This document shows, piece after piece, positions 270-57,206 of a stretch of DNA of 64,000 nucleotides. Numbering within the stretch: the first letter of the stretch is position 1; every line of letters begins with the position of its first letter. The notes beneath the pieces are model-generated. The model searched no databases, was not told the DNA's origin, and saw only the letters and a program-made list of their open reading frames with translations. Position numbers and translations under genes: made by a program. Origin of the DNA: Vairimorpha necatrix (Eukaryota); NCBI GenBank assembly GCA_036630325.1, contig CP142726.1, forward strand, positions 868,001-932,000, written 5' to 3'.

Positions 270-3200
270 TCAACACTCAAAAGTATTTACAATCATAAAT
301 TTCAACATCACAGAAAAAAATTGCTTAGTCTTTTCAAGATCAAAGTCGGAATCCAAGACGACTGCTCCTATTAGAGACTCAAATATGTCACTATAACATT
401 TACTAATCTTACTCTTCTTATCTCTAGTATCTTCATGTAATCCTGTAAGCGCTAGATCAAAAAGCCCTTCATTCAATAAAATTCTCGCAAATGTGTTATT
501 GTTTACAAGACCTTTTCTATAAGTGTGTAGTGCTTCAGGATCAGCTTCGGGATATTTATAAAAAATATAATCTGATACATTTAAATCTAAAAAGCAGTCT
601 CCTATCAATTCAAGTTTCTGGAATCTTTCAGATCCAAACATGTTATCTTTAAACGATGGATGTATCATCGCCTTCTCTAAATAACCTTTATTTTTGAATT
701 TGTAATTTATTTTTTCTTCGATCATTTGCACATTTTGATATGGCAAAATACCTTCGTACTCACAGAGTAAATAAATACTTTCCTTAGTTTCCGACATTTT
801 GCGATAACTTAGTGTTTTGGTATGTCTGTCTAAAATGCCCAATTTCTTGATAAAATCAAATGCTTTGTCAAATCCTAATTCTATGTAATGAGCTCCAATC
901 ATGGACTCTACAATGTCAGCTAACACTTTATTTCCTAATTCATACAATGAATCTTTTGTGTGTTTGATACTAAAATTTTTTACAAAGTTTGCTTGATTAC
1001 TATTCGTAAACACAAACTCTGCGCCTAGGTTTTGCACTAAAGAATGATCTTCTAATTCACTCAGAATAGCAGGCGGCTGGAATAAATGCTCTGAATATTT
1101 GTTAAATGTGAAATATTCTGACAACCCAATCTTCTTCGCAATTCTATACAAATTATCATTACAAACTATATAATCTTTAGTAGTTACAAGTTTATTGAGA
1201 TTGTAACCACATTCTATAAACAAATATTTACTCACAGCATATTTTAAAACTGAGTCTCCGATAAACTCAAGTCTCTCGTAGCCCAAATCGAACTCCCCAT
1301 CATAAACACCTCTTTGTGTAAAGGAAATCGCTAAATTCTCAAGAGAAACTTCCAAATTCATCTTTTCTTTCAATTCGTGGACCAGAGCCATAGTTTCGAA
1401 AACATTAAAAAATTTTACAAATTTTTTATAATCATTTTTTATATTTTTGCTTATAGCAGAGACATGAAATATTTCACCAGAGTTTAACTCGTAGGTGCTT
1501 CCTTTTTTTGCTGAGTAAATAGACGCACCAAAAATAATGTTTGTGTCGTCGATCTGTTTCTCTAATTCTAGTCCATATTTTTCATTAAAATATTCCAGAA
1601 AGGTAGTTTCAGGAGATGGCGGATTTCCATTTACACTTCGTATTCTTTTACAAATGGTTCCGATTTCATCTGTCAATTTCTTTTCACTTTCATTTACATA
1701 TTCGTAAAATTGTTTATTAATCGGATTAAACAACAAGAAAGAACTTAGAATATTTTTGTCTTTTACTTCATAAACTGATCCAAAGAAGAATTTGTTACAC
1801 ATCAAATTCATGTAGTCAAAATCAATATTTCCTGATTTTATAGGTATGACATAATAGGCATATTTTCTATATGACTCTGGTGGAAAAGTTTTTCTTCGGA
1901 AATTTATACTAAAAAAAAATATTTGAAAATTCAATATAACTTTTTTTTCGTTCTCTGTAAAATTAACTTCTTTTAAATAATTTATCTCTGTTTCTTTGTA
2001 AGATACTGTATTTCTAAATGATTTCCCCGTACAAATCCCAATATTACTTTTATTGAAAATATATACGCTCATAGTGTCAGTAAATTTGGATAAAGCACGC
2101 GGCTGTTTTCTAAGTACCTCATTAATATTGAGAACAGATACATTTTCTTCGTCAAAACAAATACTGTGTTCTTTAAAAAATCGATCTTCAAATTCATATG
2201 CTTCTTTTTGAGCATTTATCAGTTGTTTGGCCTCTTCTAAATCTTGGAAATCGATATTATAAATTTTTTTGATATTTTCTATATAAACTTGATTTTCGTC
2301 AATAAATTTTTGTTTTACGGGTAGGAAATTTGCATCCAAAAATCCCGCCTCGTACATCTTTATTAAAAATTTATAGCACACATCTTTGTACGCATCTTTT
2401 TTTAAACTAAAATTGTCTGATTGAATTTTTTTAGAAAAAAAATCGCCATCGACCATTTTAGGTAATTCGAGGCAACAGTAAAATTTATTTTCTTGCGCGG
2501 CACTGTAAAAAGACTTATAAACGCGCAAATCTTTTAAAAGAAGAAAATTATCATAGAATAATCTATTAATCATGTACATTACATGTTCTGAAAATATGAC
2601 AGCATAATCAAGAGCCAGTGTAGGTACAGGATATTTATTAGGCGACGTCGTGCAATATTCAAGCCGTTTCTTATGTGCGTATTTATGAAATATGGTCAAT
2701 TCTTTATTCTTACAAATTTCATCTACCACTAGATTAGGAAAATCTCCTTCTTTTTTAATAATTATAACATTTTTAAACTTATGAACATCTTCGTCGTCAG
2801 CTTCTTCAATCAAAATAAGTGACGCATCGGGGTCAATATCATTAGCGGACATTTCATTATAATTATAAACATTATCCAGCTCGCATTTAAAATCGCCTTT
2901 TATAAATATTGGTCCCATGTTTTTTATACCTTTTATAATCTCTAGCATCTGTCGATGTTCTAATAATTTCTTTGCTTTTTCTTTGTCTTCTTGTTCAATT
3001 GCAATGTTTTTTGTTTTGTTAAAATTGATACATTTATTTAAAAGAACTGTAGCTTCGTCAAGATCTTCCTTTTCTAATTTCTCTAATTTTTTCATAAGTG
3101 CAAGATAAACAGGATTCTGAACTTTTTTCACTGTACTTTTTAATATTCTCCTGCACTTAGCATACGACACAATCTCATCTGTCAATGTCAAATCCAATGT

Positions 3201-3707
3201 CAAGCATTTTATATTGTTTTTTTGTGTATTAATTTTATTAGACTGCGTAGACTGGAAGTAAATTGGCAGGTCTATGTTTTTATCATCTGTGAATACAATA
3301 CAACTAGGTTTAGTCAAATCATAAAGTTTTCCATCAATATAAAACAACCTAAATGCGTGTGTCAATTCTGATTTAATTTCACAATTTATTATGACTATAT
3401 CATAATCGTAAACGTTTAGAAGCCCTTGCCACGATAAAAGAATAAATTTCGACGGATGACAAATTAATTGCTTAGTTTCTTTTATTCTCAAAAGCATTTC
3501 TCCGAATTTATATTTAAAATCTTGCGCAAAGTACTTGTCGTCTGTAATGACAATATATCTTTCATTTTCCGCCATTAACTTTTTCATTTCTTCTATGTTT
3601 ATATTATTGTTAGCATTTTTAGAGATGATTGAATTCAATTTCATACTAATTTTTGGGGTATAATTTTCTTTTATATTTTTTGGCGCTAAAAACTGTAAAA
3701 GTTTCAT
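270..3707 (-). CDS. DCR1: Dicer-like RNase III (1145 aa)
   Basis: Two RNase III signatures (YERLEFIGDSVLK...LADIVESMIGA; FQKLELIGDCFLD...SDIFESLIGAV), PAZ-like segment (TFLEYFNEKYGLEL) and DUF283-like segment (KKDAYKDVCYKFLIKMYEAGFLDANFLP). Confidence 0.93.
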   Translation of the reverse strand: MKLLQFLAPKNIKENYTPKISMKLNSIISKNANNNINIEEMKKLMAENERYIVITDDKYFAQDFKYKFGEMLLRIKETKQLICHPSKFILLSWQGLLNVYDYDIVIINCEIKSELTHAFRLFYIDGKLYDLTKPSCIVFTDDKNIDLPIYFQSTQSNKINTQKNNIKCLTLDLTLTDEIVSYAKCRRILKSTVKKVQNPVYLALMKKLEKLEKEDLDEATVLLNKCINFNKTKNIAIEQEDKEKAKKLLEHRQMLEIIKGIKNMGPIFIKGDFKCELDNVYNYNEMSANDIDPDASLILIEEADDEDVHKFKNVIIIKKEGDFPNLVVDEICKNKELTIFHKYAHKKRLEYCTTSPNKYPVPTLALDYAVIFSEHVMYMINRLFYDNFLLLKDLRVYKSFYSAAQENKFYCCLELPKMVDGDFFSKKIQSDNFSLKKDAYKDVCYKFLIKMYEAGFLDANFLPVKQKFIDENQVYIENIKKIYNIDFQDLEEAKQLINAQKEAYEFEDRFFKEHSICFDEENVSVLNINEVLRKQPRALSKFTDTMSVYIFNKSNIGICTGKSFRNTVSYKETEINYLKEVNFTENEKKVILNFQIFFFSINFRRKTFPPESYRKYAYYVIPIKSGNIDFDYMNLMCNKFFFGSVYEVKDKNILSSFLLFNPINKQFYEYVNESEKKLTDEIGTICKRIRSVNGNPPSPETTFLEYFNEKYGLELEKQIDDTNIIFGASIYSAKKGSTYELNSGEIFHVSAISKNIKNDYKKFVKFFNVFETMALVHELKEKMNLEVSLENLAISFTQRGVYDGEFDLGYERLEFIGDSVLKYAVSKYLFIECGYNLNKLVTTKDYIVCNDNLYRIAKKIGLSEYFTFNKYSEHLFQPPAILSELEDHSLVQNLGAEFVFTNSNQANFVKNFSIKHTKDSLYELGNKVLADIVESMIGAHYIELGFDKAFDFIKKLGILDRHTKTLSYRKMSETKESIYLLCEYEGILPYQNVQMIEEKINYKFKNKGYLEKAMIHPSFKDNMFGSERFQKLELIGDCFLDLNVSDYIFYKYPEADPEALHTYRKGLVNNNTFARILLNEGLFDLALTGLHEDTRDKKSKISKCYSDIFESLIGAVVLDSDFDLEKTKQFFSVMLKFMIVNTFEC

Positions 3708-3774: not shown

Positions 3775-4077
3775 AAAAATAAAATTCAATAAGTTGTGGA
3801 GAAAAAAATACTTACACTTATAAAAAATAAACGAGTGTAATATTTGTAAGGAACGGCCTTATTTATTCAAAACAGATAAGAAAATTTTTTCATAAGAAAA
3901 CACTTGCGGGGATTAAATAAATGATTAGCAAGGAATCATAATGTCAAGGTTCAAAATATAAAACAACTATCATTTATCTGTTTTGAATAAATATGGCCGT
4001 TCCTTACAAATATTACACTCGTTTATTTTTTATAAGTGTAAGTATTTCTTCTCCACAACTTATTGGATTTTATTTTT
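3775..4077. repeat. Long inverted repeat (arms 3775-3879 and 3974-4077, ~94-nt spacer)
   Basis: Arms are reverse complements over ~105 bp with about 4 differences. Confidence 0.95.
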
Positions 4078-10179: not shown

Positions 10180-11397
10180 ATGGTCTTTTTCTTGAAAAAT
10201 TGGTTTTCTGATTCAATAACCAAGCTTCTAAGAAATGACACAATGGATAAATCTCATCAAAATGTCCAAATTGTTGATATAATCTTATCAAAACACAAAT
10301 CTGATCTTATTCTAAGAGATAAAGATTTCTTTATAAGAGCTCAAATTACCAATTCTAAGATTAATTTACATAAAGGAACGTGTATAAATATAAAAGATTA
10401 TTATATTGAATATAGAAATAAAGAGTTTATTTTGTTTATTGAAGATTGTGTAGATTTGGGCAGTTTATCTGACGTACCAAGTTATATTGAAAATATTAAT
10501 ACTAAATATAAAATAGAGTTGAGCAGCCCTTTGTACGCAGATTTTACGTACGATGAGTTGTTTGTAGATAGACAATATAAATTTGTATCTTTAGAAACAA
10601 ATAAGCATATAGAAAATAAAGAAGATGATTTTGAGTCGAGTAATATTTTCACAGACAGTATAATTCTTAATACATCAGTAATAAATAATATGAATGAAGA
10701 TACAACAGGCATTCGTGACATAATGGGCACTAAAATAGAGGACAAACATATAATAGTCGATAATTCAGTTAATTATGATATAAATAGTTCATTTGATTCT
10801 AATTGCACAAATGACGATAGATCAAATAAAAATGATACACCAGGAATTGTATATAAAAAATCTTGTTCTAAGTTCAATCCATACACTAGAATTGTCAACT
10901 CTTTGAAACATATTCCTAAAAATAATAAAATTATCAAATCTACAGACATAAATAAATACCAAATAGAAAATATCCTTAAACTATACTATTTAAAATTTAA
11001 TTTGATAAGTAAAATCTTTATTAATTTATATTATTCAGAATTAGAAAGAGTTATAAATGAATACAAGAAACATTATATCACTAATTTGCAAAATGAAAAA
11101 TTTAATAGATTAGAAGATCGCAGATCTTCCAAAAAATTTAGAAGCAAGTCGACCAAGCGCAAAATACGAAAGAGAATTTCCGAGTTTTATATTAGAAAAT
11201 ATTCCCACACAATACAGAATATTAAAAATCTCTTCGTAAAAAATGATGTTTACAAATACACAGAAAACAGTAAAATCAAGTATTTTGATATTTACCCAGA
11301 TCGCCTAATAAAACACGCTAAAATAGAAATTGATGAATTTAATTTTTTGAATGCGAAAGATGAAATTATGTTTGACATTAATTATGAAATAAATTAA
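10180..11397 (+). CDS. Hypothetical protein with N-terminal TPP1/Est3-like OB fold, copy 1
   Basis: ORF track 10171-11397; first ATG at 10180. N-terminal pattern WF...QIVDII...LILRD..FIRAQIT...G.CI.IKDY...EFILFIED resembles the TPP1/Est3 OB fold. Confidence 0.6.
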   Translation: MVFFLKNWFSDSITKLLRNDTMDKSHQNVQIVDIILSKHKSDLILRDKDFFIRAQITNSKINLHKGTCINIKDYYIEYRNKEFILFIEDCVDLGSLSDVPSYIENINTKYKIELSSPLYADFTYDELFVDRQYKFVSLETNKHIENKEDDFESSNIFTDSIILNTSVINNMNEDTTGIRDIMGTKIEDKHIIVDNSVNYDINSSFDSNCTNDDRSNKNDTPGIVYKKSCSKFNPYTRIVNSLKHIPKNNKIIKSTDINKYQIENILKLYYLKFNLISKIFINLYYSELERVINEYKKHYITNLQNEKFNRLEDRRSSKKFRSKSTKRKIRKRISEFYIRKYSHTIQNIKNLFVKNDVYKYTENSKIKYFDIYPDRLIKHAKIEIDEFNFLNAKDEIMFDINYEIN

Positions 11398-19965: not shown

Positions 19966-21195
19966 ATGTTTTGGGGGCTTCTTATAGTTTTTCTACATAT
20001 CCACAAGTACAAAGCTAATCCTCTACTCGAAGAAAAAACCGAGGAAACCGAGCTATGTAAAAAACACCTGTCAATTAATGATTATACTTTTAAGGGAGAT
20101 TACTATAATGACGAGAAATTTAAACGAATATCAAAGATAATATTTTATACTGTTTTAGGTAAAATAAAATTTCCATTAGATAAACATTATCATTATTTTT
20201 CCAGGGATACCGATGTAAATTATAAGATCTCCTTCAAAGACCTTAAATATGCCGAATATATGAATTTTATAATGAACCGCGCAGATGATGCTTTAAATCT
20301 TGATGATAGTAGTCAAGAAGACGAAAAACATTATAAAGCTCAAGCAATTAGAGATTTATTAGCCGGTCTCGCAAGTTATACTAAAGGATTTATGCATGCC
20401 TTGGTCTGTATTAATTATAGGGATAATGAAATTGATGTTGAAACAATTAAACTTTTTCTTGATAAATATTTAAAGATAACACAGAATACTGAGGAAAAAA
20501 CTCTTAGTTTGGCGAAGTTCAATTTAGAAAAAAATAACTTTTTTAATGATTTAAATGAAAGTGTTAACATAGGAAAAACTGACGATGTTAGTACCCGAGA
20601 AGCCGACCTAATTACCAGACGAAGAAACAAACGCGGAGCAAAATTATTAAATGAAAGTGCCGAAATGCTGGACAATGACAACAATAACACCAAATTGAAT
20701 AATACTTCCATTCAAGACAGTAGCAGCGATGACAATAAGAAAAATTTCATTGGTTGCCAAGAAACTAATGATGCTTTTCAATCAAATACTAATATCAACA
20801 TTCAGTTAAATAATATTATTACTCAAGGCAATAATCCACAAGATAATAATATTAACAAGCGAAACGATAGTAACAATGAAACTGAAGAAATGTATGACGA
20901 TGGACAAGAAAATAAACATATCAACATTCCAGCGGATCTATCTATTGACATTGAAGCAGATCGAAATAATATCACAAGAAATAATAATTTTATCAGTCAA
21001 GACAATAGTAGCAGTATTGCGTCAGATTCCACAGACATGTTTAAAGAACTTACCTCACTCATGCAACATAAACCCCTTATTACCACTCATGATAATGTTA
21101 ATAATCTAGGCATGACAACTTATTATAGTCCAAATTATCTGTCGGGGGCTTGCTTATTGCACATTTTGTTTCGTAATTCTTTAGGTTTAAATTAA
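19966..21195 (+). CDS. Putative secreted/surface Asn-rich protein, paralog of 26704-27990
   Basis: Hydrophobic N-terminus, conserved ~190-aa domain, N/D-rich linker, hydrophobic C-terminus; CCCC motif before the ATG. Confidence 0.85.
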   Translation: MFWGLLIVFLHIHKYKANPLLEEKTEETELCKKHLSINDYTFKGDYYNDEKFKRISKIIFYTVLGKIKFPLDKHYHYFSRDTDVNYKISFKDLKYAEYMNFIMNRADDALNLDDSSQEDEKHYKAQAIRDLLAGLASYTKGFMHALVCINYRDNEIDVETIKLFLDKYLKITQNTEEKTLSLAKFNLEKNNFFNDLNESVNIGKTDDVSTREADLITRRRNKRGAKLLNESAEMLDNDNNNTKLNNTSIQDSSSDDNKKNFIGCQETNDAFQSNTNINIQLNNIITQGNNPQDNNINKRNDSNNETEEMYDDGQENKHINIPADLSIDIEADRNNITRNNNFISQDNSSSIASDSTDMFKELTSLMQHKPLITTHDNVNNLGMTTYYSPNYLSGACLLHILFRNSLGLN

Positions 21196-26703: not shown

Positions 26704-27990
26704 ATGATTTGGATTCCTCCAATAGTTTTTATGCTTATCGCAAAGTCTATGGCCAAGCCTCCGATTAAAGGAAAAATTGAAACAGATGAGGATTGTAAAA
26801 AACAACTCTCGATGTACAATTATACTTTTACAAAAGATTATTATGAAACCGAGAAATTTAAAATAATAACAAAAGTAGTATTTAAAGCTCTTTTAGATGA
26901 AATAAAATTTCCTTTAGATGAACAGTACCATTATTTTTCGAGAGATAAAGATGTAAAGTATAAAATTATCCGACATGACTTAAAATATATCAATTATATG
27001 TATTACATAATGTACCCCGCCGAAAGCTCATCAGATCTTGACGATGATAGTCAAGAATATCATGTTGAATTTTATAAAGCGCAAGCAATTAAGGATTTGG
27101 TGATTGGTATGGCATTTTTTACAAAAAAATTATTGCATACCTTAGTCTGTATTAATTATAGAGACAAAGAAATGTATGTTAATATAATTAGATATTTTTT
27201 TGATAAGTTTGTAAAGATAAAACAGAATGAAGAGGAAAAAATTCTTAGTTTTGAAAAGTTCAATTTCGATATAAATAATTTTTTTAATGATTTAAATAAA
27301 AATGTTAATATGGGAGTTCCTGAAGATATCAATACTCAAGAATACGACAAACTTTCCGCCCCAATAAAAAATAATATAATGCTAGAAGACAAAGGTACTA
27401 CCAGTTCGGCTAATGAAAGCAATAAAATACATGATAATCGCAACGAAAGCGTCCAAGTGGATAATGTAACCATACAGTACAATAGTGGCAATGACATTGA
27501 AGAACTTTTTGTTGATGGCCGAGAAAATAGTAGCAATATTGAAAAAGAAAACAATGCCATCATACAATCAAATATGAGCATTAGCACCGAATTAAAGACT
27601 TTAAAATCTCATTACAATAATAGTATACATACTCAAGATAATTATGTAAACTTGCAAGAAAATAATGCTAATGACGTGAACGAAAATCCTATCGATGATC
27701 GAGAAATTGAAAGTACTATCCTACCAGCAAATGAAAATATCTACATGCAAAGCAATCATATCAATATCATTCAAGATAATAATATTATCAGCCAAATAAA
27801 TACTAGCAGCTTTACACCCGATAATACGACTATGTTAGAAGAACTTACCTTATTCATGCAAGATAACTCCTTTATTACAATTCATGATAGTGTTAGCAAT
27901 TTGGGATTTCCAACATATAATAGTCCAAATTATCTTTCGAGTGTTTGTATATTGCCCATTTTATTTCATAATACTTTAGGCTTAAATTAA
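26704..27990 (+). CDS. Putative secreted/surface Asn-rich protein, paralog of 19966-21195
   Basis: Signal-peptide-like MIWIPPIVFMLIAKSMA; shared motifs IKFPLD..YHYFSRD.DV.YKI, YKAQAI.DL, LVCINYRD, SPNYLS..C.L.ILF.N.LGLN. Confidence 0.85.
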   Translation: MIWIPPIVFMLIAKSMAKPPIKGKIETDEDCKKQLSMYNYTFTKDYYETEKFKIITKVVFKALLDEIKFPLDEQYHYFSRDKDVKYKIIRHDLKYINYMYYIMYPAESSSDLDDDSQEYHVEFYKAQAIKDLVIGMAFFTKKLLHTLVCINYRDKEMYVNIIRYFFDKFVKIKQNEEEKILSFEKFNFDINNFFNDLNKNVNMGVPEDINTQEYDKLSAPIKNNIMLEDKGTTSSANESNKIHDNRNESVQVDNVTIQYNSGNDIEELFVDGRENSSNIEKENNAIIQSNMSISTELKTLKSHYNNSIHTQDNYVNLQENNANDVNENPIDDREIESTILPANENIYMQSNHINIIQDNNIISQINTSSFTPDNTTMLEELTLFMQDNSFITIHDSVSNLGFPTYNSPNYLSSVCILPILFHNTLGLN

Positions 27991-38956: not shown

Positions 38957-41021
38957 TATAAACAGTAAATATTTAATTTATTTCATAATTAATGTCAAAC
39001 ATAATTTCATCTTTCGCATTCAGAAAATTAAATTCATCAATTTCTATTTTGGCGTGTTTTATTAGGCGATCTGGGTAAATATCAAAATACTTAATTTTAC
39101 TGTTTTCTGTGTATTTGTAAACATCATTTTTTACGAAGAGATTTTTAATATTCTGTATTGTGTCAGAATATTTTCTAGTGTAAAACTCGGAAATTCTCTT
39201 TCTTATTTTTCGCTTGGTCGACTTGCTTCTAAATTTCTTGGAAGATCTGCGATCTTCTAATCTATTAAATTTTTCATTTTGTAAATTAGTGATATAATAT
39301 TGCCTGTATTTTGTTATAACTCTTTCTAATTCTGAATAATATAAATTAATAAAGAATTTGCTTATCAAATTATACTTTAAATAGTATAGTTTAAGAATAT
39401 TTTCTATTTGGTATTTATTTATGTCTGTAGATTTGATAATTTTATTATTTTTAGGAATATGTTTCAAAGAGGTGACAATTCTAGTGTATGGATTGAACTT
39501 AGAACAGGATTTTTTATATACAATTCCTGGTGTATCATTTTTATTTGATCTATCGTCATTTGTGCAATTAGAATAAATTAAGCTATATTCATCATAATTA
39601 ACTGAATTATCGGCTACTATATGTTTATTTTCCATTTTAGCGCCCATTATATCACGAATGCCTGTTGTATCTTCATTCATATTATTTATTACTGATGTAT
39701 TTAGAATTATACTGTCTGTGAAAATATTACTCGACTCAAAATCATCTTCTTTATTTTCTATATGCTTATTTGTTTCTAAAGATACAAATTTATATTGTAT
39801 ATCTACAAACAACTCATCGTACGTAAAATCTGCGTACAAAGGGCTGCTCAACTCTATTTTATATTTAGTATTAATATTTTCAATATAACTTGGTACGTCG
39901 GATAAACTGCCCAAATCTACACAATCTTCAATAAACAAAATAAACTCTTTGTTTCTATATTCAATATAATAATCTTTTATATTTATACACATTCCTTTGT
40001 GCAAATTAATCTTAGAATTAGTAATTTGAGCTCTAATAAAGAAATCTTTATCTCTTAGAATAAGATCAGATTTGTGTTTTGATAAGATTATATCAACAAT
40101 TTGGACATTTTGATGAGATTTATCCATTGTGTCATTTCTTAGAAGCTTGGTTATTGAATCAGAAAACCAATTTTTCAAGAAAAAGACCATTGGGATTATA
40201 GGGGGATATAGAAAAACAAAGAGAGGAGTAAAATAATATAGACGCATTGTGTAAGCAAATAAAATATGGAGAGAAAATGACTCAGACTTTTTTAGATTAG
40301 TAGACATGTATAAACTGATGATAAGGTTATGTTTTAATAGGAAAATACGATAAAACTATGTAAAATAATAAAAAGTCATAATTTAAAAAAAATGCTCATT
40401 ATTTTTATAAAATCTTACTTTATGTGATCTTTTGGATTTCCAACAGACCATGAAGAATGTTTTAAGCTAAGCTTTTTATTATGCTCTAAGCCCCCGGGCA
40501 TGTTTTCCTTTATGTTTATAGGCGAGAAAATATTGTACAATATTTCCTTCAAAATTCATAATAGAAGGAAGCGGCGGAATACTTATAGAATGGTATATCT
40601 CGTCCAGAGGAAACTAAGGATCAATAAAGGGTTATTTCTTGACACTTGCTATTTCAAATTTTTTTTTCCTATTTGCTTAAGAATGTTTGTAAAAAATAGT
40701 TTGTTTGTTAAATAAGGTTAACCTTAAAAAACTATAAATATTCTGGTATTTGCATGAATACAGAATGCCAAATTCTTATACACAAGAGAGTCGTACATGA
40801 AAAATATAAGCAAAAAATATATAGAGAATAAAAATGTAATAACTATAAAATAAAATTTGACTTTCTCTTGTATTAAGAGAAAGGAAGAAACCTTACATAA
40901 AGATCTGATGGACTTGTTTTGCGATCCTCATCTTTCTGATACTGCGAGATTCTTACTCATTAAAAACCCTCCATATAATTTGCTAGTGCAGCAACCTGCG
41001 CCGTATCCATTGAACTTTGTC
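38957..41021 (-). repeat. ~2.07-kb segmental duplication, copy 2
   Basis: Reverse complement of 9346-11414. Confidence 0.95.
38973..40190 (-). CDS. Hypothetical protein with N-terminal TPP1/Est3-like OB fold, copy 2
   Basis: Near-identical to 10180-11397. ATG at 40190 is preceded by atccca (CCC motif); the upstream in-frame extension to 40307 is not open in copy 1. Confidence 0.6.
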   Translation of the reverse strand: MVFFLKNWFSDSITKLLRNDTMDKSHQNVQIVDIILSKHKSDLILRDKDFFIRAQITNSKINLHKGMCINIKDYYIEYRNKEFILFIEDCVDLGSLSDVPSYIENINTKYKIELSSPLYADFTYDELFVDIQYKFVSLETNKHIENKEDDFESSNIFTDSIILNTSVINNMNEDTTGIRDIMGAKMENKHIVADNSVNYDEYSLIYSNCTNDDRSNKNDTPGIVYKKSCSKFNPYTRIVTSLKHIPKNNKIIKSTDINKYQIENILKLYYLKYNLISKFFINLYYSELERVITKYRQYYITNLQNEKFNRLEDRRSSKKFRSKSTKRKIRKRISEFYTRKYSDTIQNIKNLFVKNDVYKYTENSKIKYFDIYPDRLIKHAKIEIDEFNFLNAKDEIMFDINYEIN

Positions 41022-50313: not shown

Positions 50314-51079
50314 TTTTTTTTCTTGCAAGTAAAGGTAGAAAAACCTTAAATAGGGACCAATTTGGGTGTGATCCTCATCAACTGGTACTGTGAGATTCTT
50401 ACTCACTAAAACTTCCTCCATACTACTTGCCGGCGCAGCAAGCTCCGCCGTATCCATTGGACTTTAGCACCAGGAGAACACTTTCCATTTATGCCTCAAA
50501 TCGCGTCCAGAGTGACCTCACAGCGGATATACTTAACGGGCATGGTTATCTATAACCCGAGAAGAGACATCATCGTTCTGACTCAAAGGTCCCTACAATC
50601 ATCTGTATTGCACACACGGCTCCTTTCACGACCACATCACCAGCCTGGCATTTTTATTGGGCTGCGTTGACCACTAGTCTCTTACTAGTTTCGGCCACCG
50701 TGTTACAGAAACTTGCAGGATAGGGTCCACGAGACCTTCTATTGCCCTACTTCATCTAGTCTCCTAGTTAGCTCTATAATCCCACTCTATAGTGCGCCAG
50801 CCATGGGCCCAACTAGGCCATACCTATTTGATATTTTTATGTATCATTAAGTCATTACAAGGGTGATACTGTTTTTTTTTTGAGGTGCGTTTTTACACTA
50901 GATGCTAATCCCCTTGTGGCTGGACACACACAAGTTTCATTGAATCAACTTATAATTTCTCGTGGACATTTTCATCATCCGCATCATACAAAACAGGAAC
51001 AATTTTGGCGCCCCTGGGAATCGAACCCAGCCATTGCTCAATGGAAACATCGCCTTCTACCACTGGGCTAAGGGCGCCC
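50314..51079 (-). mobile_element. Full-length tRNA-derived SINE (766 bp)
   Basis: tRNA-like head, ~690-nt body, A8 tail and exact 13-bp TSD ctctatttttaag (50301-50313, 51080-51092). Confidence 0.92.
51006..51078 (-). other. tRNA-like SINE head with Pol III A and B boxes
   Basis: GGCGCCC/GGGCGCC acceptor stem, TAGCCCAGTGG A box, CTGGG-TTCGATT-CCCAG T arm; non-canonical anticodon arm. Confidence 0.85.
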
Positions 51080-51383: not shown

Positions 51384-52789
51384 CGGGGGTCGGCAACCTT
51401 TTTGAAATAAAGTTCGGAATGGGTAATTTCAAAATCTTAAAACGAAAAACGGGCTTAAGCTCAAGAAAATATTTTAGAAAATATAAATAAATGCTCTGGA
51501 AATTTTTTAAAAAAAAAACATTTTGTAGCGAAAAATACGATTATGTTTTTTTTCAGTATTTTTTCAAAGATAGACATCATCAACAAGTATAAATTTTTTT
51601 ATATTAAAACGAAAATTATAATTAAATTTTTCTTACAAGAGTTTTCTTGAGTGATTAAAAGAATTGATAAAAATAATTTTAATGGTTTTATATAGATTTA
51701 ATAGATATTGTTTTGACAAGAATGAGAAGCAACTTTCTTCATAATTACTACGAAAAGAGGTTTAAATTTTGTTTTCGATTAAATCTCGAAGAAATAACAA
51801 AAATTAACTACGTGTAGAGAAATACTAAGAAACAATACTTTTTAATGAGAAACTTGATTTTGCATGTCATCTGCAATTTGTCATAATTAATGATATAAGA
51901 TGAATTGGCAGCTCTTAAACTGTTATCTAAATGTTTGTTTGTAAGTTGTGTTCGAAATTTTAATTTTAAATACGTCATATTCGAAAAAGAGCTTCACGAT
52001 TATATGTGGTTTCACAATATGAAAATATTTTGAGTTGCACTATTTCTTAAAATGGAAAAACTATTATCTGAAACCAATTTCAAAAGTCCTTGTCTAAATA
52101 ATGAGATTTTAAAACTATATCATTCTTCAAATTAATAATTTCAATTTCTAAGTCGTCCATGTTAACTATATGAAAAAAATTAGAAATTTTTACTGGTAAA
52201 TCAGAATCAAAAACATTAAAAGGATTAACAAAAAATGGAATTAATTCCTCTAATGATCGAAAATCATGAAATTTTTTAAAAAACTCAATCAATAATAAAT
52301 CTATTGCGCCTATGTACGTTGTAGGATCGAATTCATGAATACTTAAATTTATTTTTTCAATTATTAACTTAGTATTTTGAAAATGAGATAAGGATTTCTT
52401 CATCAAATGTATTTTAAAAAGTTCTAACTTATTTGCAAAAGAATTAATTAAGCTTATCATATCTGCAATATGTGAATTCTTTTGTTGTAATTTTAAATTT
52501 AGTTCATTAAATTTCATTGTGATATCCGCTAAAAATCCAAGATCTAATAGCCAACTTTTGTTTTCTAATTCTATATAAGTTTCATTTCTCATTGCAATAA
52601 ATTCCTTTAGTTGAGGTAAAAGCTTAATAAAGCGTTCAAGAACTTTGCCTCGGCTAAGCCACCTTACTTCTGTATACAGAACTAAATCTTTTAAATCTGC
52701 GTTTTCTTCCTCCATAAGCAGCTTAAACGGCCTATTTTGAGTTGCTTTGGCTCTTATCGAATTTATAATTTTAGTAACAATTAATAAAA

Positions 52790-55700
52790 TGTGTTTATTT
52801 TCCATAATAAGGAGAAAAAATAATAAGGATATATAACATCCCCCCTCCAAGACGGTAGTCTCATACTAGAACTCATTAATCCCAAGCAGACCTTTTAAAT
52901 CATAATGCCGCTTTTTCACGATCCTACCATTTTCCAAACTAACTAAGTACGAGTCACCTCCGCAAACTTCCTTGATAACACCATATCCTAAAAACCTTCC
53001 TTTCTCATACTTACTACAACCCGATAAGTTCTCTTTCTTCGCTACCCTAACTCTCTGACCTTTATAGAATTTCTCTCTTTTGCGAGCCACAAACCTCCTA
53101 CTATAAAATCCTTCAGGTCCATTCTCGATCATAACATGGCCCGTTTCGTCTCTTGAGGCCTCAAACGGTGTACATCTCAACCCTTCATGATAGCTGTTAT
53201 TATAACGCCATATACATCTATTAACCTTGGCTTCAAAATCCACAGCATCATCTTTCAATATTCCTTCTCTTATGGTTCCTATTACCCTTTCCACTCTTCC
53301 ATTACTTCTATGACTTTCTACGCTTACTTTCCTATGTAATACATTTTCCTCTGAACACCAATTCCTCATATATTCATTACTAAATTCTTTACCGTTGTCA
53401 GTAATTATTTCTACCGGTTTCATTCCTGATCCACACAACTGTTTTAAAAATCCTACAACCGAGCTTCCGCGTTTGTCCTCTATTACTTTTCCCCAAACGA
53501 TCCTAGTATAATAATCAATCACGACCAACACATATTTCCCTAAATCTCTAAACTCAATCAAATCCAAAGCAACCTTTTCCAAATAAAATCTTGAACTAAC
53601 AAAATCACAACCACCACTCTTTTTCCTATTATGTATTTGGCAAACTTCACACTTCTTTAAAACATCCTCGATATCCTTCTTCATACCCGGCCAATAAAAT
53701 TCAAACTTCATTGCATAGTACACTGGTCCTAAACTTCTATGTCCCAAATTTTCATGAGCATTGACAATTAAACCTTCACGCAATTCTTTCTTTGGAATCT
53801 CCGCTTCTCTACCAGAGTCAAATACCCAAATTTCCTTTCCATCAACAACTTTAACATGCTTGTCCCATTTACCCTGTGCCTGTTTAATACTTCTCTCCTT
53901 ATTCATTAGCGTTTTCTCATTTTCATGTACCCTACTCAGTGCATCTGCTACAACCATGGTACTAGGCTCTATATATTCAATGCTAAAGTCGAACTCTTGA
54001 ATCTTTTCAATCCACCTGTTAATTCTATTATTGTTAAATGCTGGTTTATTTCTAATCTCGATCAATGCCTTATGATCAGTTTCTACCCTAAATCTTCTTC
54101 CGCGTAGTTCATATTCAAACTTTTTAATTCCCCAAAAGACTGCATACATCTCCTTCTCACTGATTCCATATCTCTTTTCCGTAGGCGTAAACTTTTTTGA
54201 TGCCCACTGTACTGGTACCCAATTACCTTGATCATCTTCCTGCATTAAAACAGCACCCATTCCAACATTACTCGCATCCGTGCGTAACAAAAATTCCTTA
54301 TTATAATTAACAATTGCTAAACCTTTTAAATCCCTAATCACTTCCCTTAAACTAATATATTCTTTTTCCATTTCTTCTGTCCATTTCCAATTACTTCCTC
54401 GTCCTTTAAGAGAATCCGTCAACGCCAATGTACGTTTTGCATAATTATCAATATGATTTCTAAACCATCCAGCCAGCCCAAGAAACTTCCTAACATCTGA
54501 TACACACTCCGGTTTGGGAAATTCTAACGCTTCATTTTGCTTTATTTCAGATGGCAGTATCTCCTTGCCATTAACTGTTACTCCTAACAACATCACCTCT
54601 CGTTTACATAATTGAACCTTAGCCAAATTAATTTTCATATTATTCTCCTCTAATATATCCACAGCCTCTTTCAACAATTTGTCGTGACCCTCTCTTGTCT
54701 TACTATGAATCACAATATCGTCCATATAAATTTCGATTCCCTTACCAATAAATTTTTCAAAAATCCCATTCATTATTCTTTGTAATATCTGCGGTGAGTT
54801 TTTAAACCCCATGACCATCGAATTCCACTCGTATACCTTTTTATTAAACTCAAAAGCCGTCTTAAACCTATCCTTCTCTTCAATCTCAATACTATAAAAC
54901 CCCTCCTTTAGATCTATCACGGTAAAAAATTCAGATCCCTGTGTACTTCTAATAACATCTCTTATCCTAGTTAACTCATAAGGGTCCTTCTCTACAATGT
55001 CATTAAGAGCAATTAAATTACTTACTAATCTTATATCACCATTCGGTTTCTCAATCGCTCTAATGGGATTTCTCCAGTCAGATGTCGACCTTCTAATTAT
55101 CTTTCTTCTTTCCAAACTATTAATATAATCTTCCGTCTTCTTCAACAAAGCCTGAGCTATAGCCTGCCCTTTTTTAACAACTTTCTTGCCTTCTTGAGTC
55201 TTGATAATACATTTTTCAACCTTACAAAAACTAATATCTTCATCCTCTCTTCCTCCTACCCGTGAAATAATCTCCTCTAAATACGCGATGCCTCTTACAT
55301 CCCTTCTCAACAGAACTCTCTTATTATTGTCCCTTTTGCTATAATCTTGTATATCCCCTAAATTTTTCTTCTTACGTTTCCCACCATCAACATTATAATA
55401 ATCACATTTGTCCGAATTGGAATCGTCATCACATTTACCCTCTAAGTCTAATTGCACTTTACATTTACCAACATAATTAAAACTACTTTTATTTCTTCTG
55501 TCTTCAGAATCTCGCCTCATTCCCCTACAAAATCTAACACTATGGCCTAACTTCCCACAATTGTAGCAACGCATATTCTTTTTATTTTCCTCACGAGACA
55601 ACTTATTCTTCTCCTCAAATTTAGCCCATAACGCTAGGGACAACTCTTCAAATTCTTTTTTTCTCACTTGTTCCTTTTCCTCCTGAATAGCTAGCAACTC

Positions 55701-55973
55701 TAATTTTTCCTCAATTTCCTTCCAACTACCCTCTTGCGAGATCCTCTCAACAATAAAATTTCTCAATAAAATAGAACCTCTCCTAAAAATTTCTAACTTA
55801 AATCCACACTCATCAATTTTCTCTAAAAACAACTCATAAACAATCCTTTTAACCTCTTTTAATAATATTCTAGCCTCTTGGCCACGGTCCTCCTTTGTAG
55901 ACCCATTTTCTGGTATCGCCCCCATGTGTTTATTTTCCATAATAAGGAGAAAAAATAATAAGGATATATAACA
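52790..55973 (-). mobile_element. Complete Ty3/Gypsy LTR retrotransposon with 49-bp LTRs
   Basis: Identical TG...CA repeats 55925-55973 and 52790-52838; 5-bp TSD taaaa; PBS TGGGGGCGATACCAG abutting the 5' LTR; PPT GGAGGGGGGA abutting the 3' LTR. Confidence 0.95.
52866..55940 (-). CDS. Gypsy single-ORF polyprotein (short Gag with CCHC knuckle, RT, RNase H, integrase)
   Basis: CYNCGKLGHSVRFC; IDLKEGFY, YMDDIVI; TDAS, EKE, TDHKAL, ADALSR; H...H...CEVC, LDL/TDNGKEF/NGRVER. Start is ATG 55940 (inside the LTR) or ATG 55925. Confidence 0.93.
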   Translation of the reverse strand: MENKHMGAIPENGSTKEDRGQEARILLKEVKRIVYELFLEKIDECGFKLEIFRRGSILLRNFIVERISQEGSWKEIEEKLELLAIQEEKEQVRKKEFEELSLALWAKFEEKNKLSREENKKNMRCYNCGKLGHSVRFCRGMRRDSEDRRNKSSFNYVGKCKVQLDLEGKCDDDSNSDKCDYYNVDGGKRKKKNLGDIQDYSKRDNNKRVLLRRDVRGIAYLEEIISRVGGREDEDISFCKVEKCIIKTQEGKKVVKKGQAIAQALLKKTEDYINSLERRKIIRRSTSDWRNPIRAIEKPNGDIRLVSNLIALNDIVEKDPYELTRIRDVIRSTQGSEFFTVIDLKEGFYSIEIEEKDRFKTAFEFNKKVYEWNSMVMGFKNSPQILQRIMNGIFEKFIGKGIEIYMDDIVIHSKTREGHDKLLKEAVDILEENNMKINLAKVQLCKREVMLLGVTVNGKEILPSEIKQNEALEFPKPECVSDVRKFLGLAGWFRNHIDNYAKRTLALTDSLKGRGSNWKWTEEMEKEYISLREVIRDLKGLAIVNYNKEFLLRTDASNVGMGAVLMQEDDQGNWVPVQWASKKFTPTEKRYGISEKEMYAVFWGIKKFEYELRGRRFRVETDHKALIEIRNKPAFNNNRINRWIEKIQEFDFSIEYIEPSTMVVADALSRVHENEKTLMNKERSIKQAQGKWDKHVKVVDGKEIWVFDSGREAEIPKKELREGLIVNAHENLGHRSLGPVYYAMKFEFYWPGMKKDIEDVLKKCEVCQIHNRKKSGGCDFVSSRFYLEKVALDLIEFRDLGKYVLVVIDYYTRIVWGKVIEDKRGSSVVGFLKQLCGSGMKPVEIITDNGKEFSNEYMRNWCSEENVLHRKVSVESHRSNGRVERVIGTIREGILKDDAVDFEAKVNRCIWRYNNSYHEGLRCTPFEASRDETGHVMIENGPEGFYSRRFVARKREKFYKGQRVRVAKKENLSGCSKYEKGRFLGYGVIKEVCGGDSYLVSLENGRIVKKRHYDLKGLLGINEF

Positions 55974-57206
55974 TAAAATATGATTAAAATTAACACTTTT
56001 TGAAAATAAAACTTGTTGATGAATTATACAGTGATATGAAATATACTTTGGAAACAAAGAATCTTTTCTACATAAACCAATAAATCCGTTTTCTTTTCCG
56101 ACCATTGCTCGTGCACCATCAGTAGTAATAGAAGAAAGTTTTTGAAGTGGTATATTTTTATCGACAATAAATTTTTATAATAAAGAAAAAATGTCTTTTC
56201 CCGTTGTACGAGCAGTTAAATGTAGAATTTTCAAAAATCTCTCTTTAGTTGAAAAGTCATTAAATACCATTTTTATAGAAACAATATGTTGTGCTGTGTC
56301 AACTACATCGGTAGATTCAATAAGCTGAAAAGAGAAATACATACAATTTCTTAAGTCTTTACCTAATTTTGATTCTAAATTATTAGCAATTAATTCTATT
56401 ATTCTTGATTCAGTTCTAGCTGATAACTGCAACATATTAATAGCTTTTAAAATTTCTGTCTTGTTTTCAAAATCTTCATAAAGAGAATCCGCCGCTGTTA
56501 TCATGGCCTCTTTTATAATTTCTGCATCAGTAAAGGGGGTTTTCTCAGCCAACAGATGTGCAACTTTTATTGAAGCTACAGTGCCCGCCTTCGAAAGCTC
56601 TTTTGGCTTTGTAAAATATCTCTGCTGTTTTACAATTGCTGATTTAGAAGATATCAACTTACTTTTTCGCAGTTCGGAATTCAGTGGGTATTCAATATTT
56701 ATATTTTCATGCAAACCATTAAAGTGTCGTTCTAAGTTACTTTTTTGCATATTGCAAAGCTTTTGTTGCACAATAAACAAATACACTTACCTTTAAATTC
56801 TATAAAGAAAAAATCTTCTTCCCATGAATTATTAAATTGATAATTTCTTTTTTTTGAAGGTTCCATATAAGGGGCAAAAAAATTTTGTAATAAATTTTTA
56901 AAATTTATTGAATGTTGCATTAGCATGTTTTATGGCATAATTATTGTCAAAATAAATTCTAAAGAACTTTATAATTGAAATAAACAATTTTATTGTTATA
57001 ATCATCAAATGTAAGAAAATTTTTGTTGAAAGGTCTTTTTGCTTAACGGAAAGTACATCAACTCCTTATAATGTACTCCCAATATTTAGCATTAAAAATG
57101 TAATTGACCAAATTTATTTTAAAAAAATAAAATATTAAATTTTTAAAATTTCTTCTTAATGTGAAAAATGAAAACGGGCGCTTCGTTGCCGACCCCCGCC
57201 ATACGT

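What the first reader, a model, noticed from the sequence alone, without database searches (positions are those of the whole stretch)
52790..55973. Intact minimal Gypsy retrotransposon with 49-bp LTRs and no leader
Seen: two identical 49-nt repeats (minus strand TGTTATATATCCTTATTATTTTTTCTCCTTATTATGGAAAATAAACACA), a 5-bp TSD, a PBS touching the 5' LTR, a PPT touching the 3' LTR, and one uninterrupted ORF. The ORF fills almost the whole 3184 bp, with the stop 27 nt from the 3' LTR. The LTR packs a TATA-like run, a T-run+CTCC like the host CCC motif, an in-frame ATG and AATAAA. A second ATG is formed by the last A of the LTR plus TG of the PBS. Known: LTRs are normally hundreds of bp and carry U3-R-U5 plus a leader for priming and packaging. 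Inference: a recently active, extremely streamlined LTR retroelement whose PBS lies in coding sequence and whose strand transfer must rely on a very short R.
Basis: partly seen in the sequence, partly recalled or inferred. Interest (0 to 1): 0.88.

Follow-up and report, generated by a model that had tools for sequence, protein, structure and literature searches.

The report
Compact Gypsy retrotransposon with 49-bp LTRs
This is a real, apparently intact jumping gene of the Ty3/gypsy type whose terminal repeats are only 49 bases long, and its relatives in microsporidian parasites are built the same way, so it shows how small a working retrovirus-like element can be.

Summary
Two identical 49-nt TG..CA repeats (52790-52838 and 55925-55973, minus strand) carry a 5-bp TTTTA target duplication. 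A TGG-initiated primer site touches the 5' repeat and a G-rich polypurine tract touches the 3' repeat. One 1024-aa ORF starts at an ATG inside the 5' repeat.

The ORF encodes a short helical Gag-like domain, a CCHC knuckle, RT, RNase H and integrase. Its best solved match is Ty3.

The short LTR is not a one-off. Contigs from public runs break at exactly these ends, hold the element at several-fold the flank depth, and show another flank. A paralogue of the hAT transposon host lacks the insert. Relatives have LTRs of 39, 58, 75 and about 175 nt, always ending ..ACA|TGG so that the primer site is translated.

The LTRs carry the host-type T-run/CCC motif just before the ATG. This implies a compact promoter and an R region of about 20 nt or less; that part is inferred, with no RNA data.

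No text I could read gives LTR lengths for microsporidian Gypsy elements. I score it as a new variant of a known kind.

The parts
55974..55978 (-). 5' copy of the target-site duplication (TTTTA on the minus strand)
   Evidence: chance of a 5-bp match about 0.0022
55925..55973 (-). 5' LTR, 49 nt, TGT...ACA. TATATAT is at LTR positions 4-10, the T-run plus CTCC at 19-28, ATG at 34-36 and AATAAA at 40-45.
   Evidence: the motif reading rests
55946..55955 (-). T-run plus CTCC inside the 5' LTR, 5 nt upstream of the ATG. It resembles the host T-run/CCC core-promoter motif. Function is inferred.
   Evidence: 6 of 13 long window ORFs have a C3-5 run 0-10 nt before the ATG. Sister LTR variants carry CCCCC at this place (loose ends). 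The motif is described in PMC2803860 and PMC11592040.
55912..55924 (-). Primer-binding site TGGGGGCGATACC, directly after the LTR and inside the ORF (codons 6-10, M-G-A-I-P). Its TG completes the second ATG.
   Evidence: The N-terminal pattern M-x(3-8)-M-A/G or M-A/G appears in 31 of the 76 relatives printed. The tRNA identity was not tested.
52866..55940 (-). Single gag-pol ORF, 1024 codons plus TAG stop
55575..55880 (-). Gag-like helical domain (aa 21-122: three short helices and one 50-residue helix)
   Evidence: AlphaFold2 block pLDDT 73-89. No Pfam hit at E<=10. Atlas neighbours are gag/zf-CCHC clusters at 0.85-0.90, a lead only.
55527..55568 (-). CCHC zinc knuckle (aa 125-138)
   Evidence: Pfam zf-CCHC E 0.0036, below cut-off. 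C125, C128, H133 and C138 are invariant in 16 sequences.
55296..55520 (-). Variable, predicted-disordered linker (aa 141-215) where a protease would normally lie
   Evidence: pLDDT below 50. No invariant column between C138 and C244. No Pfam hit at E<=10.
54573..55055 (-). Reverse transcriptase (aa 296-456, YMDD at 405-408)
   Evidence: RVT_1 E 8.3e-32; Ty3 RT 4ol8 E 1.6e-56; Foldseek
53991..54383 (-). RNase H (aa 520-650)
   Evidence: RT_RNaseH E 1.1e-32 and RT_RNaseH_2 E 4.2e-27; D555, E597 and D622 invariant
53331..53792 (-). Integrase: H2C2 zinc domain (aa 717-772) and DDE core (aa 792-870)
   Evidence: Integrase_H2C2 E 3e-13 and rve E 4.8e-10; H729, H734, C764, C767, D793, D848 and E884 invariant
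52839..52865 (-). 27-nt 3' untranslated stretch: conserved GAGACTACCGTCTT motif, then the polypurine tract GGAGGGGGGA abutting the 3' LTR
   Evidence: The same motif precedes the LTR in L003, L004 and L006. In some relatives it is translated as ETPS..GGDV.
52790..52838 (-). 3' LTR, identical to the 5' LTR
52785..52789 (-). 3' copy of the target-site duplication (TTTTA)
55979..56786 (-). Upstream part of the interrupted host sequence, a decayed hAT/GTF2IRD2-like transposase gene
   Evidence: by continuity with the downstream part
52080..52784 (-). Downstream part of the interrupted hAT/GTF2IRD2-like transposase gene
   Evidence: 58 relatives at E<=0.001; the best is 69% identical, and relatives carry DUF4371 and hAT dimerisation domains

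Best explanation
The feature is a complete, probably still mobile Ty3/gypsy-type LTR retrotransposon of 3184 bp, nested in a hAT DNA transposon of an AT-rich genome. The genome is microsporidian-like, judged from the best named relatives. The element belongs to a clade of single-ORF, protease-less elements in which the LTR has shrunk to a few tens of bases.

Shown here:
- 49-nt LTRs with TGT..ACA ends and a 5-bp TSD.
- A PBS and a PPT that abut the LTRs.
- One ORF encoding a helical Gag-like domain, a CCHC knuckle, RT, RNase H and integrase, with all catalytic residues in place.
- The same LTR ends in other copies.
- LTRs of 39 to about 175 nt in relatives.

Inferred mechanism:
- The 49 nt hold the two integrase end-sites and a host-type core promoter (AT-rich stretch, T-run, C-rich motif).
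- Five bases after that motif comes the start codon. Microsporidian 5' UTRs are only a few nt long, so transcription should start around LTR position 29-33.
- The RNA then begins almost at the ATG, there is no leader, and the PBS is read as codons 6-10.
- A cellular tRNA primes minus-strand synthesis. It is possibly tRNA-Pro, since the site reads TGGGGGC.
- The strong-stop DNA is about 20 nt or less. It transfers to the matching stretch of the 3' LTR, whose AATAAA would direct cleavage at or just past the LTR end.
- The PPT primes the plus strand, and integrase makes the 5-bp duplication.
- With no protease, the Gag-Pol protein would work uncleaved or be cut by a host enzyme in the disordered linker.
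For: Structure of this copy:
- Domains are, and invariant catalytic residues.
- The best solved match is Ty3 Gag-Pol 7q5b at E 6.6e-58. Query residues 273-671 align with Ty3 residues 616-1009, so about 340 N-terminal residues fewer precede RT.

Other copies, from public runs:
- X1 has a 3165-nt contig, which equals the 3135-nt period plus 30. Its depth is 59.3, against 3-17.6 for the flank contigs.
- Those flank contigs stop at 52788/52789 and start at 55973.
- An X15 contig leaves the 3' LTR into 125 nt of unlike flank.
- Two X3 contigs join 52784>55975 and 52785>55976, skipping 3190 nt. An exact empty site would skip 3189.
- LTR variants in X1, X2 and X3 have the same length class.
- 20 rows from 13 studies hold the stretch or part of it.

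Constraint: 12 synonymous and 11 non-synonymous changes among the 23 ORF variants shown.

Family:
- Of the 13 loci examined, 4 have an LTR pair. L003 has 39 nt with 1 mismatch and TSD TTATA. L012 has 58/58, L022 has 75/75, and L018 has 176/172 nt with 164 of 176 columns identical.
- In all four the LTR ends ACA and is followed directly by TGG, and the ORF opens in the LTR.
- The proteins show the resulting N-terminus in 31 of 76 printed.

Promoter reading:
- 6 of 13 long ORFs of the window have a C3-5 run 0-10 nt before the ATG, against 5.2 CCC per kb overall.
- RACE in E. cuniculi gave 5' UTRs under 7 nt and a CCC motif before the start codon (PMC2803860, abstract and passages).
- A T-run plus CCC motif is linked to expression in Nosema (PMC11592040, passages).

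No protease:
- None of the first 79 rows carries a protease Pfam family.
- No Pfam hit at E<=10 for aa 130-260.
- aa 141-215 have pLDDT under 50.
Against: - No transcript data exist here. No RNA holder is on record and all runs laid were contigs. The start site, the poly(A) site and the length of R are therefore inferred.
- The window LTR has CTCC, not CCC.
- The primer tRNA was not found. The window holds only a tRNA-Met, and the 3 pattern hits in G001/G002 are not tRNAs.
- Three of the four relatives with LTR pairs (L012, L022, L018) show no clean TSD. They sit on short metagenome contigs that may be chimeric, their organism is not known, and they are only about a third identical in protein.
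- Two identical 49-mers give little dating power.
- A secondary source says that nearly all N. bombycis Nbr elements encode a protease (PMC2474625 passage on Xu et al. 2006). Either those are another clade, or a divergent protease escapes my three tests.
- Transposition without a protease is not shown.
Confidence: 0.8

Rival explanations
1. The element is structurally complete but not autonomous. Having lost its protease, it depends on a protease, or on whole particles, supplied in trans by other Gypsy families in the same genome.
For: No protease by Pfam, conservation or fold. More distant Gypsy relatives with protease families exist in the databases (from row P0080 on). PMC2474625 reports, citing Xu 2006, that Nbr elements encode a protease.
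Against: The whole clade lacks a protease: the first 79 rows, with named members from Nosema, Vairimorpha and Enteropsectra. It still keeps long intact ORFs with invariant catalytic residues. This argues that the protease-less state is old and workable. The 64-kb window holds no other retroelement.
Confidence: 0.2
2. The LTR has no promoter of its own. The element is transcribed by read-through from neighbouring genes, so R is effectively the whole LTR or absent, and the T-run/CTCC/ATG layout is a coincidence of AT-rich sequence.
For: The window LTR has CTCC rather than CCC. Transcription overrun is common in microsporidia (PMC2803860). In this copy the upstream hAT frame runs open into the LTR and polyprotein (ORF 52866..56105).
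Against: A C-run followed within 0-12 nt by an in-frame ATG recurs in the LTRs of L003, L004, L006, L012, L018 and L022, and in sister LTR variants from runs. This holds although the LTR sequences are otherwise unalike (49% mean column identity).
Confidence: 0.1
3. The 49-nt repeats are stumps of once longer LTRs, or an assembly artefact, and do not represent the working element.
For: The usual LTR size is hundreds of bp (general knowledge).
Against: The PBS and PPT abut the 49-mers and a 5-bp TSD lies directly outside them. Independent run contigs break at the same ends, and the collapsed cycle equals internal part plus one 49-nt LTR. Relatives have 39-75-nt LTRs.
Confidence: 0.03

Closest known systems
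Microsporidian single-polyprotein Ty3/gypsy groups (Parisot et al. 2014, PMC4202319; Nbr1-8 of Nosema bombycis, Xu et al. 2006, not held)
   Same: One gag-pol ORF. The closest named proteins are from Nosema granulosis (80% identity), Vairimorpha necatrix, V. apis and Enteropsectra breve. The host genome is AT-rich with CCC start motifs.
   Different: The readable text gives no LTR lengths; figure 1A and the supplements could not be seen. A secondary source says Nbr elements have a protease, and this clade shows none. I did not place the element in Parisot's three groups.
Ty3 of Saccharomyces cerevisiae (type member of Ty3/gypsy)
   Same: RT-RNase H-integrase order and the best solved match (7q5b E 6.6e-58, 4ol8 E 1.6e-56). 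TG..CA ends, 5-bp TSD, tRNA-type PBS and a CCHC nucleocapsid.
   Different: Ty3 has LTRs of about 340 bp, separate GAG3/POL3 frames, a two-domain capsid and a protease (recalled). In this element RT starts about 340 residues earlier in the polyprotein, and the LTR is 49 bp.
Ty1 (Ty1/copia) of yeast
   Same: The Gag ORF opens inside the 5' LTR, so the PBS lies in coding sequence (recalled, not checked here).
   Different: A different superfamily, with integrase before RT. It has a 334-bp LTR, a 5' UTR of about 50 nt and a protease (recalled).
Retroviruses with very short R (MMTV, about 15 nt) or with the poly(A) signal in U3 (RSV, HTLV-1)
   Same: They show that strand transfer can work with R of about 15 nt. 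They also show that AAUAAA placed upstream of the start site avoids 5' polyadenylation. The layout AATAAATAACCC in L003 and L012 looks like this.
   Different: All of this is recalled, not tested. Their LTRs are still hundreds of bp and they have long leaders.
TRIMs (terminal-repeat retrotransposons in miniature)
   Same: Very short terminal repeats and small overall size.
   Different: TRIMs are non-coding and non-autonomous, with LTRs of about 100-250 bp (recalled). This element encodes Gag-like, RT, RNase H and integrase domains.

Membership tests
LTR retrotransposon (structural definition) | Two direct terminal repeats with TG..CA ends | tested here: met
   49/49 identical, TGT...ACA
LTR retrotransposon (structural definition) | Target-site duplication of 4-6 bp directly outside the repeats | tested here: met
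   TTTTA on both sides; chance about 0.0022
LTR retrotransposon (structural definition) | PBS next to the 5' LTR, complementary to a tRNA 3' end | tested here: inconclusive
   TGG... starts at the first base after the LTR. No matching tRNA could be looked up: only tRNA-Met is in the window, no genome is held, and the pattern hits in G001/G002 are not tRNAs.
LTR retrotransposon (structural definition) | Polypurine tract next to the 3' LTR | tested here: met
   GGAGGGGGGA ends at the base before the LTR; conserved in L003, L004 and L006
LTR retrotransposon (structural definition) | LTR with U3-R-U5 function (promoter, start site, poly(A) site) | not testable with these tools
   No RNA reads. There is only motif evidence.
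Ty3/gypsy (Metaviridae) | Pol domain order RT - RNase H - integrase | tested here: met
   Pfam positions 296-456, 520-650, 717-870
Ty3/gypsy (Metaviridae) | RT closest to Ty3/gypsy RTs | tested here: met
   Ty3 Gag-Pol E 6.6e-58 is the best of 27 PDB sequences. The Foldseek top hits are CaMV, Ty3 and MLV RTs. No tree was built.
Ty3/gypsy (Metaviridae) | Aspartic protease between Gag and RT | tested here: not met
   No Pfam hit even at E<=10. No conserved column between C138 and C244. aa 141-215 are predicted disordered. None of the first 79 relatives has a protease family.
Ty3/gypsy (Metaviridae) | Gag with capsid and CCHC nucleocapsid | tested here: inconclusive
   The CCHC knuckle is present. 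The N-terminal 100 residues are helical but match no gag Pfam family. Atlas neighbours are gag-like at 0.85-0.90 only. The domain was not folded or searched alone.
Microsporidian single-polyprotein Ty3/gypsy groups (Parisot 2014) | Single gag-pol ORF; members found only in microsporidia | tested here: met
   One ORF. The closest named relatives are all microsporidian. Placement in groups 1-3 was not tested, because the reference sequences are in closed supplements.
TRIM / non-autonomous short-LTR elements | No coding capacity | tested here: not met
   A 1024-aa ORF with RT, RNase H and integrase

The most novel reading that the evidence does not exclude
This clade may be the smallest self-sufficient LTR retrotransposon design so far. 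Its LTR of 39-49 bp is little more than two integrase end-sites around a borrowed host core promoter and the start codon. Its R region is about 20 nt or less, it has no leader, its primer site is translated, and its Gag-Pol protein works without any retroviral protease. If so, most of what is thought necessary in an LTR and a leader is dispensable. Standard LTR finders would also miss a whole class of elements, since their default minimum LTR is about 100 bp (recalled).
Probability: 0.35. Interest if true: 0.8.

Novelty: new variant of a known kind. Interest (0 to 1): 0.62.

Why it matters
LTRs are taught as units of hundreds of bases that must hold a promoter, R, U5 and both integrase sites, followed by a leader for priming and packaging. 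Here a coding Ty3/gypsy element does with 49 bases and a relative with 39. It has no leader and no detectable protease, and the design is conserved across several microsporidian genera.

This has three consequences:
- It sets a much lower bound on what reverse transcription, strand transfer and integration need, and it makes that bound testable by RACE and by a marked-element assay.
- It shows a mobile element copying the extreme promoter economy of its host.
- Annotation pipelines with a 100-bp LTR minimum would call such copies 'polyprotein genes' rather than retrotransposons. That is how the named database relatives are labelled.

Tried and rejected
Tools and data that were not available:
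- No whole genome is held for the window, so there is no genome-wide copy count, solo-LTR count or tRNA set.

Expression:
- No RNA holder is listed among the runs, and all four runs laid were contigs. Nothing can be said on transcript ends or expression.

Searches for related DNA:
- The viral-contig scan found no relative.
- The metagenome and genome scans gave only 9 loci, most of them truncated or decayed.
- L001/L002 are rearranged copies and L004 lacks its 5' end. Neither gave an LTR pair.
- Of the 13 loci examined, 7 showed no pair. Two (L016, L020) showed only identical locus or contig ends, which I take as assembly overlaps.

Primer tRNA:
- The window has only a tRNA-Met.
- The 10-nt complement of the PBS hit 3 places in G002, none in a tRNA.
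- Self-priming of the Tf1 type was rejected by eye: the LTR holds no complement of the PBS.

Gag region:
- A search with the first 240 aa against 1.84 billion representatives gave only 35 weak hits, none at E<=1e-30. The Gag part evolves too fast to size the clade this way.
- I did not fold the N-terminal domain alone.

Contig lengths:
- I considered estimating LTR length in relatives from Logan contig length minus ORF length. I dropped it because contig rotation and partial ORFs make the sums ambiguous.

Literature (all 10 searches used):
- 'microsporidia' with 'short LTRs' returned 0 papers.
- 'Nosema bombycis' with 'Nbr' and 'retrotransposon' returned 0 papers.
- The short-LTR phrase searches found only plant, mosquito and retrovirus papers.
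- Xu et al. 2006 is not held.
- In the passages searched for LTR terms, PMC4202319, PMC3614468, PMC13174016 and PMC2474625 state no LTR length, and PMC10759460 and PMC7313128 do not contain the term LTR.

In-frame fusion:
- The hAT frame is fused in frame to the LTR on both sides. I considered whether this is meaningful and put it down to chance: 49+5 = 54 and 3184+5 = 3189 are multiples of three, whereas L003's 39+5 is not.
Full report
WHAT IS THERE. On the minus strand of the window lies a 3184-bp unit (52790-55973) bounded by two identical 49-nt repeats (TGTTATAT...AAACACA).
- The repeat finder reports them as a 51-nt perfect pair spaced 3135 nt. One extra base on each side is identical by chance.
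- The 49-mer occurs twice and only twice in the window even with 3 mismatches allowed, and none of 100 shuffles gave two matches.
- Directly outside the repeats the flanks read TTTTA on both sides. A 5-bp match has a chance of about 0.0022 at this composition.
- The base after the 5' repeat starts TGGGGGCGATACC. The ten bases before the 3' repeat are GGAGGGGGGA.
- A single ORF of 1024 codons runs from an ATG at positions 34-36 of the 5' repeat to a TAG 27 nt before the 3' repeat.

WHAT THE ORF ENCODES. Pfam finds RVT_1 (aa 296-456), two RNase H models (520-650), the integrase H2C2 zinc domain (717-772) and the integrase core (792-870). A CCHC knuckle at 124-138 scores just under the cut-off.
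- The best solved relative is the Ty3 Gag-Pol polyprotein (7q5b, E 6.6e-58) and Ty3 RT (4ol8, E 1.6e-56). Query residues 273-671 align with Ty3 residues 616-1009, so RT starts about 340 residues earlier than in Ty3.
- The Foldseek top hits for the predicted structure are caulimovirus, Ty3 and gammaretrovirus RTs.
- In alignments of 16 and 34 family members the catalytic residues are invariant: the DD of YMDD, the RNase H D-E-D, the integrase HHCC and DDE.
- The AlphaFold2 model (34-sequence alignment, mean pLDDT 79) has confident helices at aa 21-122, the knuckle, a stretch at aa 141-215 with pLDDT below 50, and a confident RT from about aa 220.

NO PROTEASE. Where Ty3/gypsy elements carry an aspartic protease, this element has a variable linker.
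- No Pfam family hits aa 130-260 even at E<=10.
- No alignment column between C138 and C244 is conserved.
- The stretch is predicted disordered.
- None of the first 79 database relatives carries a protease family. The first that does is row P0080.
It qualifies the word 'intact'. A secondary source states that nearly all Nosema bombycis Nbr elements encode a protease (PMC2474625, passage citing Xu et al. 2006). I could not read the primary paper, so those may be a different clade.

IS THE 49-NT LTR THE REAL LTR? No genome is held for the window, so I used public runs instead.
- Twenty rows from 13 studies hold the stretch or part of it. I laid the contigs of four of these runs.
- In X1 one contig of 3165 nt covers 52816-55974. 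3165 equals the 3135-nt repeat period plus 30, which is what a k=31 graph gives when it collapses 'internal part plus one LTR' into a cycle.
- That contig's depth is 59.3, against 3-17.6 for the flank contigs. The flank contigs stop at 52788/52789 and start at 55973, exactly at the outer LTR ends. So the element is present in several copies with these same ends.
- An X15 contig runs from the element through the 3' LTR to 52783 and then into 125 nt unlike the window. That is a copy at another site.
- Two X3 contigs join 52784 to 55975 and 52785 to 55976, skipping 3190 nt. An exact empty site would skip 3189. These are paralogous copies of the host hAT transposon without the insert.
- Loose ends in X1, X2 and X3 show sister LTR variants of the same length class. 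One carries ACCCCC where the window has CTCC.
- Among the 23 ORF variants listed in that output, 12 are synonymous and 11 are not. This points to purifying selection. A further 105 variants were not shown.

RELATIVES. The protein search returned 810 relatives at E<=0.001 among the 8000 candidates scored.
- The closest named ones are from Nosema granulosis (80% identity over 77% of the query), Vairimorpha necatrix (58%), Enteropsectra breve (48%) and Vairimorpha apis. One unnamed protein is 98% identical.
- Most are about 1000 aa and sit on contigs of 3.0-3.3 kb.
- By my count 31 of the 76 N-termini printed read M-x(3-8)-M-A/G or start M-A/G. This is the protein trace of '...ACA|TGG': LTR end plus primer site inside the ORF.
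- Several C-termini read ...ETPS..GGDV. That is the translated form of the conserved GAGACTCCGTCT motif, the polypurine tract and the A|TGTT start of the LTR.

At the DNA level, the scans gave 9 loci and two MAG bins gave 30 more. I examined 13 of these loci for LTR pairs, and 4 have one:
- L003, about 50% identical in protein and decayed, has 39-nt LTRs with 1 mismatch. It has TSD TTATA, the PBS TGGCACCCAGTC abutting one LTR and the PPT AAGGCGGGGA abutting the other.
- L012 has 58/58-nt LTRs.
- L022 has 75/75-nt LTRs.
- L018 has 176/172-nt LTRs, with 164 of 176 columns identical.
The last three are only about a third identical to the window protein. They have no clean TSD and lie on short metagenome contigs of unknown organism, so they weigh less. 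L004 and L006 show only a 3' end, with the same motif-PPT-TGTT order. Short LTRs, an ATG in the LTR and a translated primer site are therefore traits of the clade, not an accident of this copy.

HOW IT PROBABLY WORKS. This part is inferred.
- In the window's own genes, 6 of 13 long ORFs have a run of 3-5 C within 0-10 nt before the ATG, often after a T-run. CCC occurs 5.2 times per kb overall.
- This is the microsporidian start motif. RACE in E. cuniculi found 5' UTRs under 7 nt and a CCC-like motif just before the start codon (PMC2803860, abstract and passages). A T-run plus CCC(C) motif is associated with expression across Nosema (PMC11592040, passages).
- The LTRs of the clade carry this layout. 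The window has TTTTTTCTCC-TTATT-ATG, L004 TTTTTACCC-ATG, L022 TTTTTAACCC-ATG, L003 and L012 AATAAATAACCC followed by ATG 10-19 nt on, and sister variants CCCCC-ATTATG.
- I read the LTR as two integrase end-sites around a host-type core promoter. Transcription would start a few bases before the ATG, near LTR position 29-33.
- That leaves at most about 20 nt of R plus U5. There is no leader, and the primer site is read as codons 6-10.
- Minus-strand strong-stop DNA would be about 20 nt. It would transfer to the 3' LTR with the help of the CCHC protein.
- The AATAAA at positions 40-45 would place cleavage at or just beyond the LTR end. The signal lies about 20 nt before the cleavage site (background statement in PMC2803860).
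- In L003, L004 and L012 the AATAAA lies upstream of the C-run. Only the 3' copy would then be transcribed, as in retroviruses with the signal in U3 (recalled).
- The primer is possibly tRNA-Pro, because eukaryotic tRNA-Pro ends ...CCCCCA (recalled). I could not test this.
- Without a protease the polyprotein must act uncleaved, be cut by a host enzyme in the disordered linker, or borrow a protease in trans.

COMPARISON WITH WHAT IS KNOWN.
- The element is a Ty3/gypsy member by domain order and RT similarity. It fits the microsporidian single-polyprotein groups of Parisot et al. 2014 (PMC4202319; passages and section 13 read).
- A primer site inside gag is known from Ty1 (recalled).
- R regions of about 15 nt are known from MMTV (recalled).
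- Short terminal repeats are known from the non-coding TRIMs (recalled).
- What I could not find in print is a coding LTR retrotransposon with LTRs of 39-49 bp, or any LTR length for microsporidian Gypsy elements.
- Xu et al. 2006 is not held, figure 1A of Parisot et al. is not held, and supplements are closed. Any of these, or Repbase, may already record such lengths.

VERDICT. I add that the element has no protease and that the design is clade-wide. The promoter, R and processing steps are inferred. I rate it a new variant of a known kind, interest 0.62.

Noticed in passing
window 52080-52784 and 55979-56786 (minus strand): The retrotransposon sits inside a decayed hAT/GTF2IRD2-like transposase gene. 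The best named relative, 69% identical, is annotated in a spider genome. Full-length relatives are about 614 aa, on 2.1-2.7-kb contigs. Run contigs show about 90%-identical paralogues, so this hAT is itself a repeat family.
   Followed up: partly
window 52080-52805 and 52866-56105 (minus strand): The hAT reading frame runs open into the 5' LTR and polyprotein (1079-aa ORF). The ATG of the 3' LTR opens a 241-aa ORF into the downstream hAT part. LTR plus TSD is 54 nt and element plus TSD is 3189 nt, both multiples of three. I take this as chance.
   Followed up: partly
window 270-3707 (minus strand): A 1145-aa ORF with two RNase III domains and a Dicer dimerisation domain. This is a Dicer-like gene, so the genome probably keeps RNAi, which is relevant to transposon control.
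   Followed up: no
window 51006-51078 (minus strand): The only tRNA gene in the window (tRNA-Met, CAT) lies 1.7 kb from the 3' end of the element. It is not the primer candidate, and I drew no targeting inference from it.
   Followed up: no
window 10180-11397 (+) and 38973-40307 (-); 19966-21195 (+) and 26704-27990 (+): Two pairs of paralogous ORFs without Pfam hits: 94.6% identity over 405 aa, and 45.6% over 428 aa. They may be further repeats or an expanded gene family.
   Followed up: partly
L001 50-430 and L002 1092-1470: In two metagenome contigs a relative's gag-pol follows, in the same open frame, a fragment of an RNase H domain of another copy. This is a nested or rearranged insertion that I did not resolve.
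   Followed up: partly
G001 and G002 (MAG bins behind L006 and L008): Two bins labelled Clostridium and Turicibacter hold 50 and 16 matches to this eukaryotic retroelement polyprotein. This suggests AT-rich eukaryotic repeat contigs were binned into bacterial MAGs.
   Followed up: no
L018 188-194 versus 3969-3975: The two LTRs of L018 differ in a 4-nt patch just before the in-LTR ATG. The 5' copy reads GGAGGGATG and the 3' copy GGGCCCATG. This is a GGG/CCC swap at the place of the start motif.
   Followed up: no
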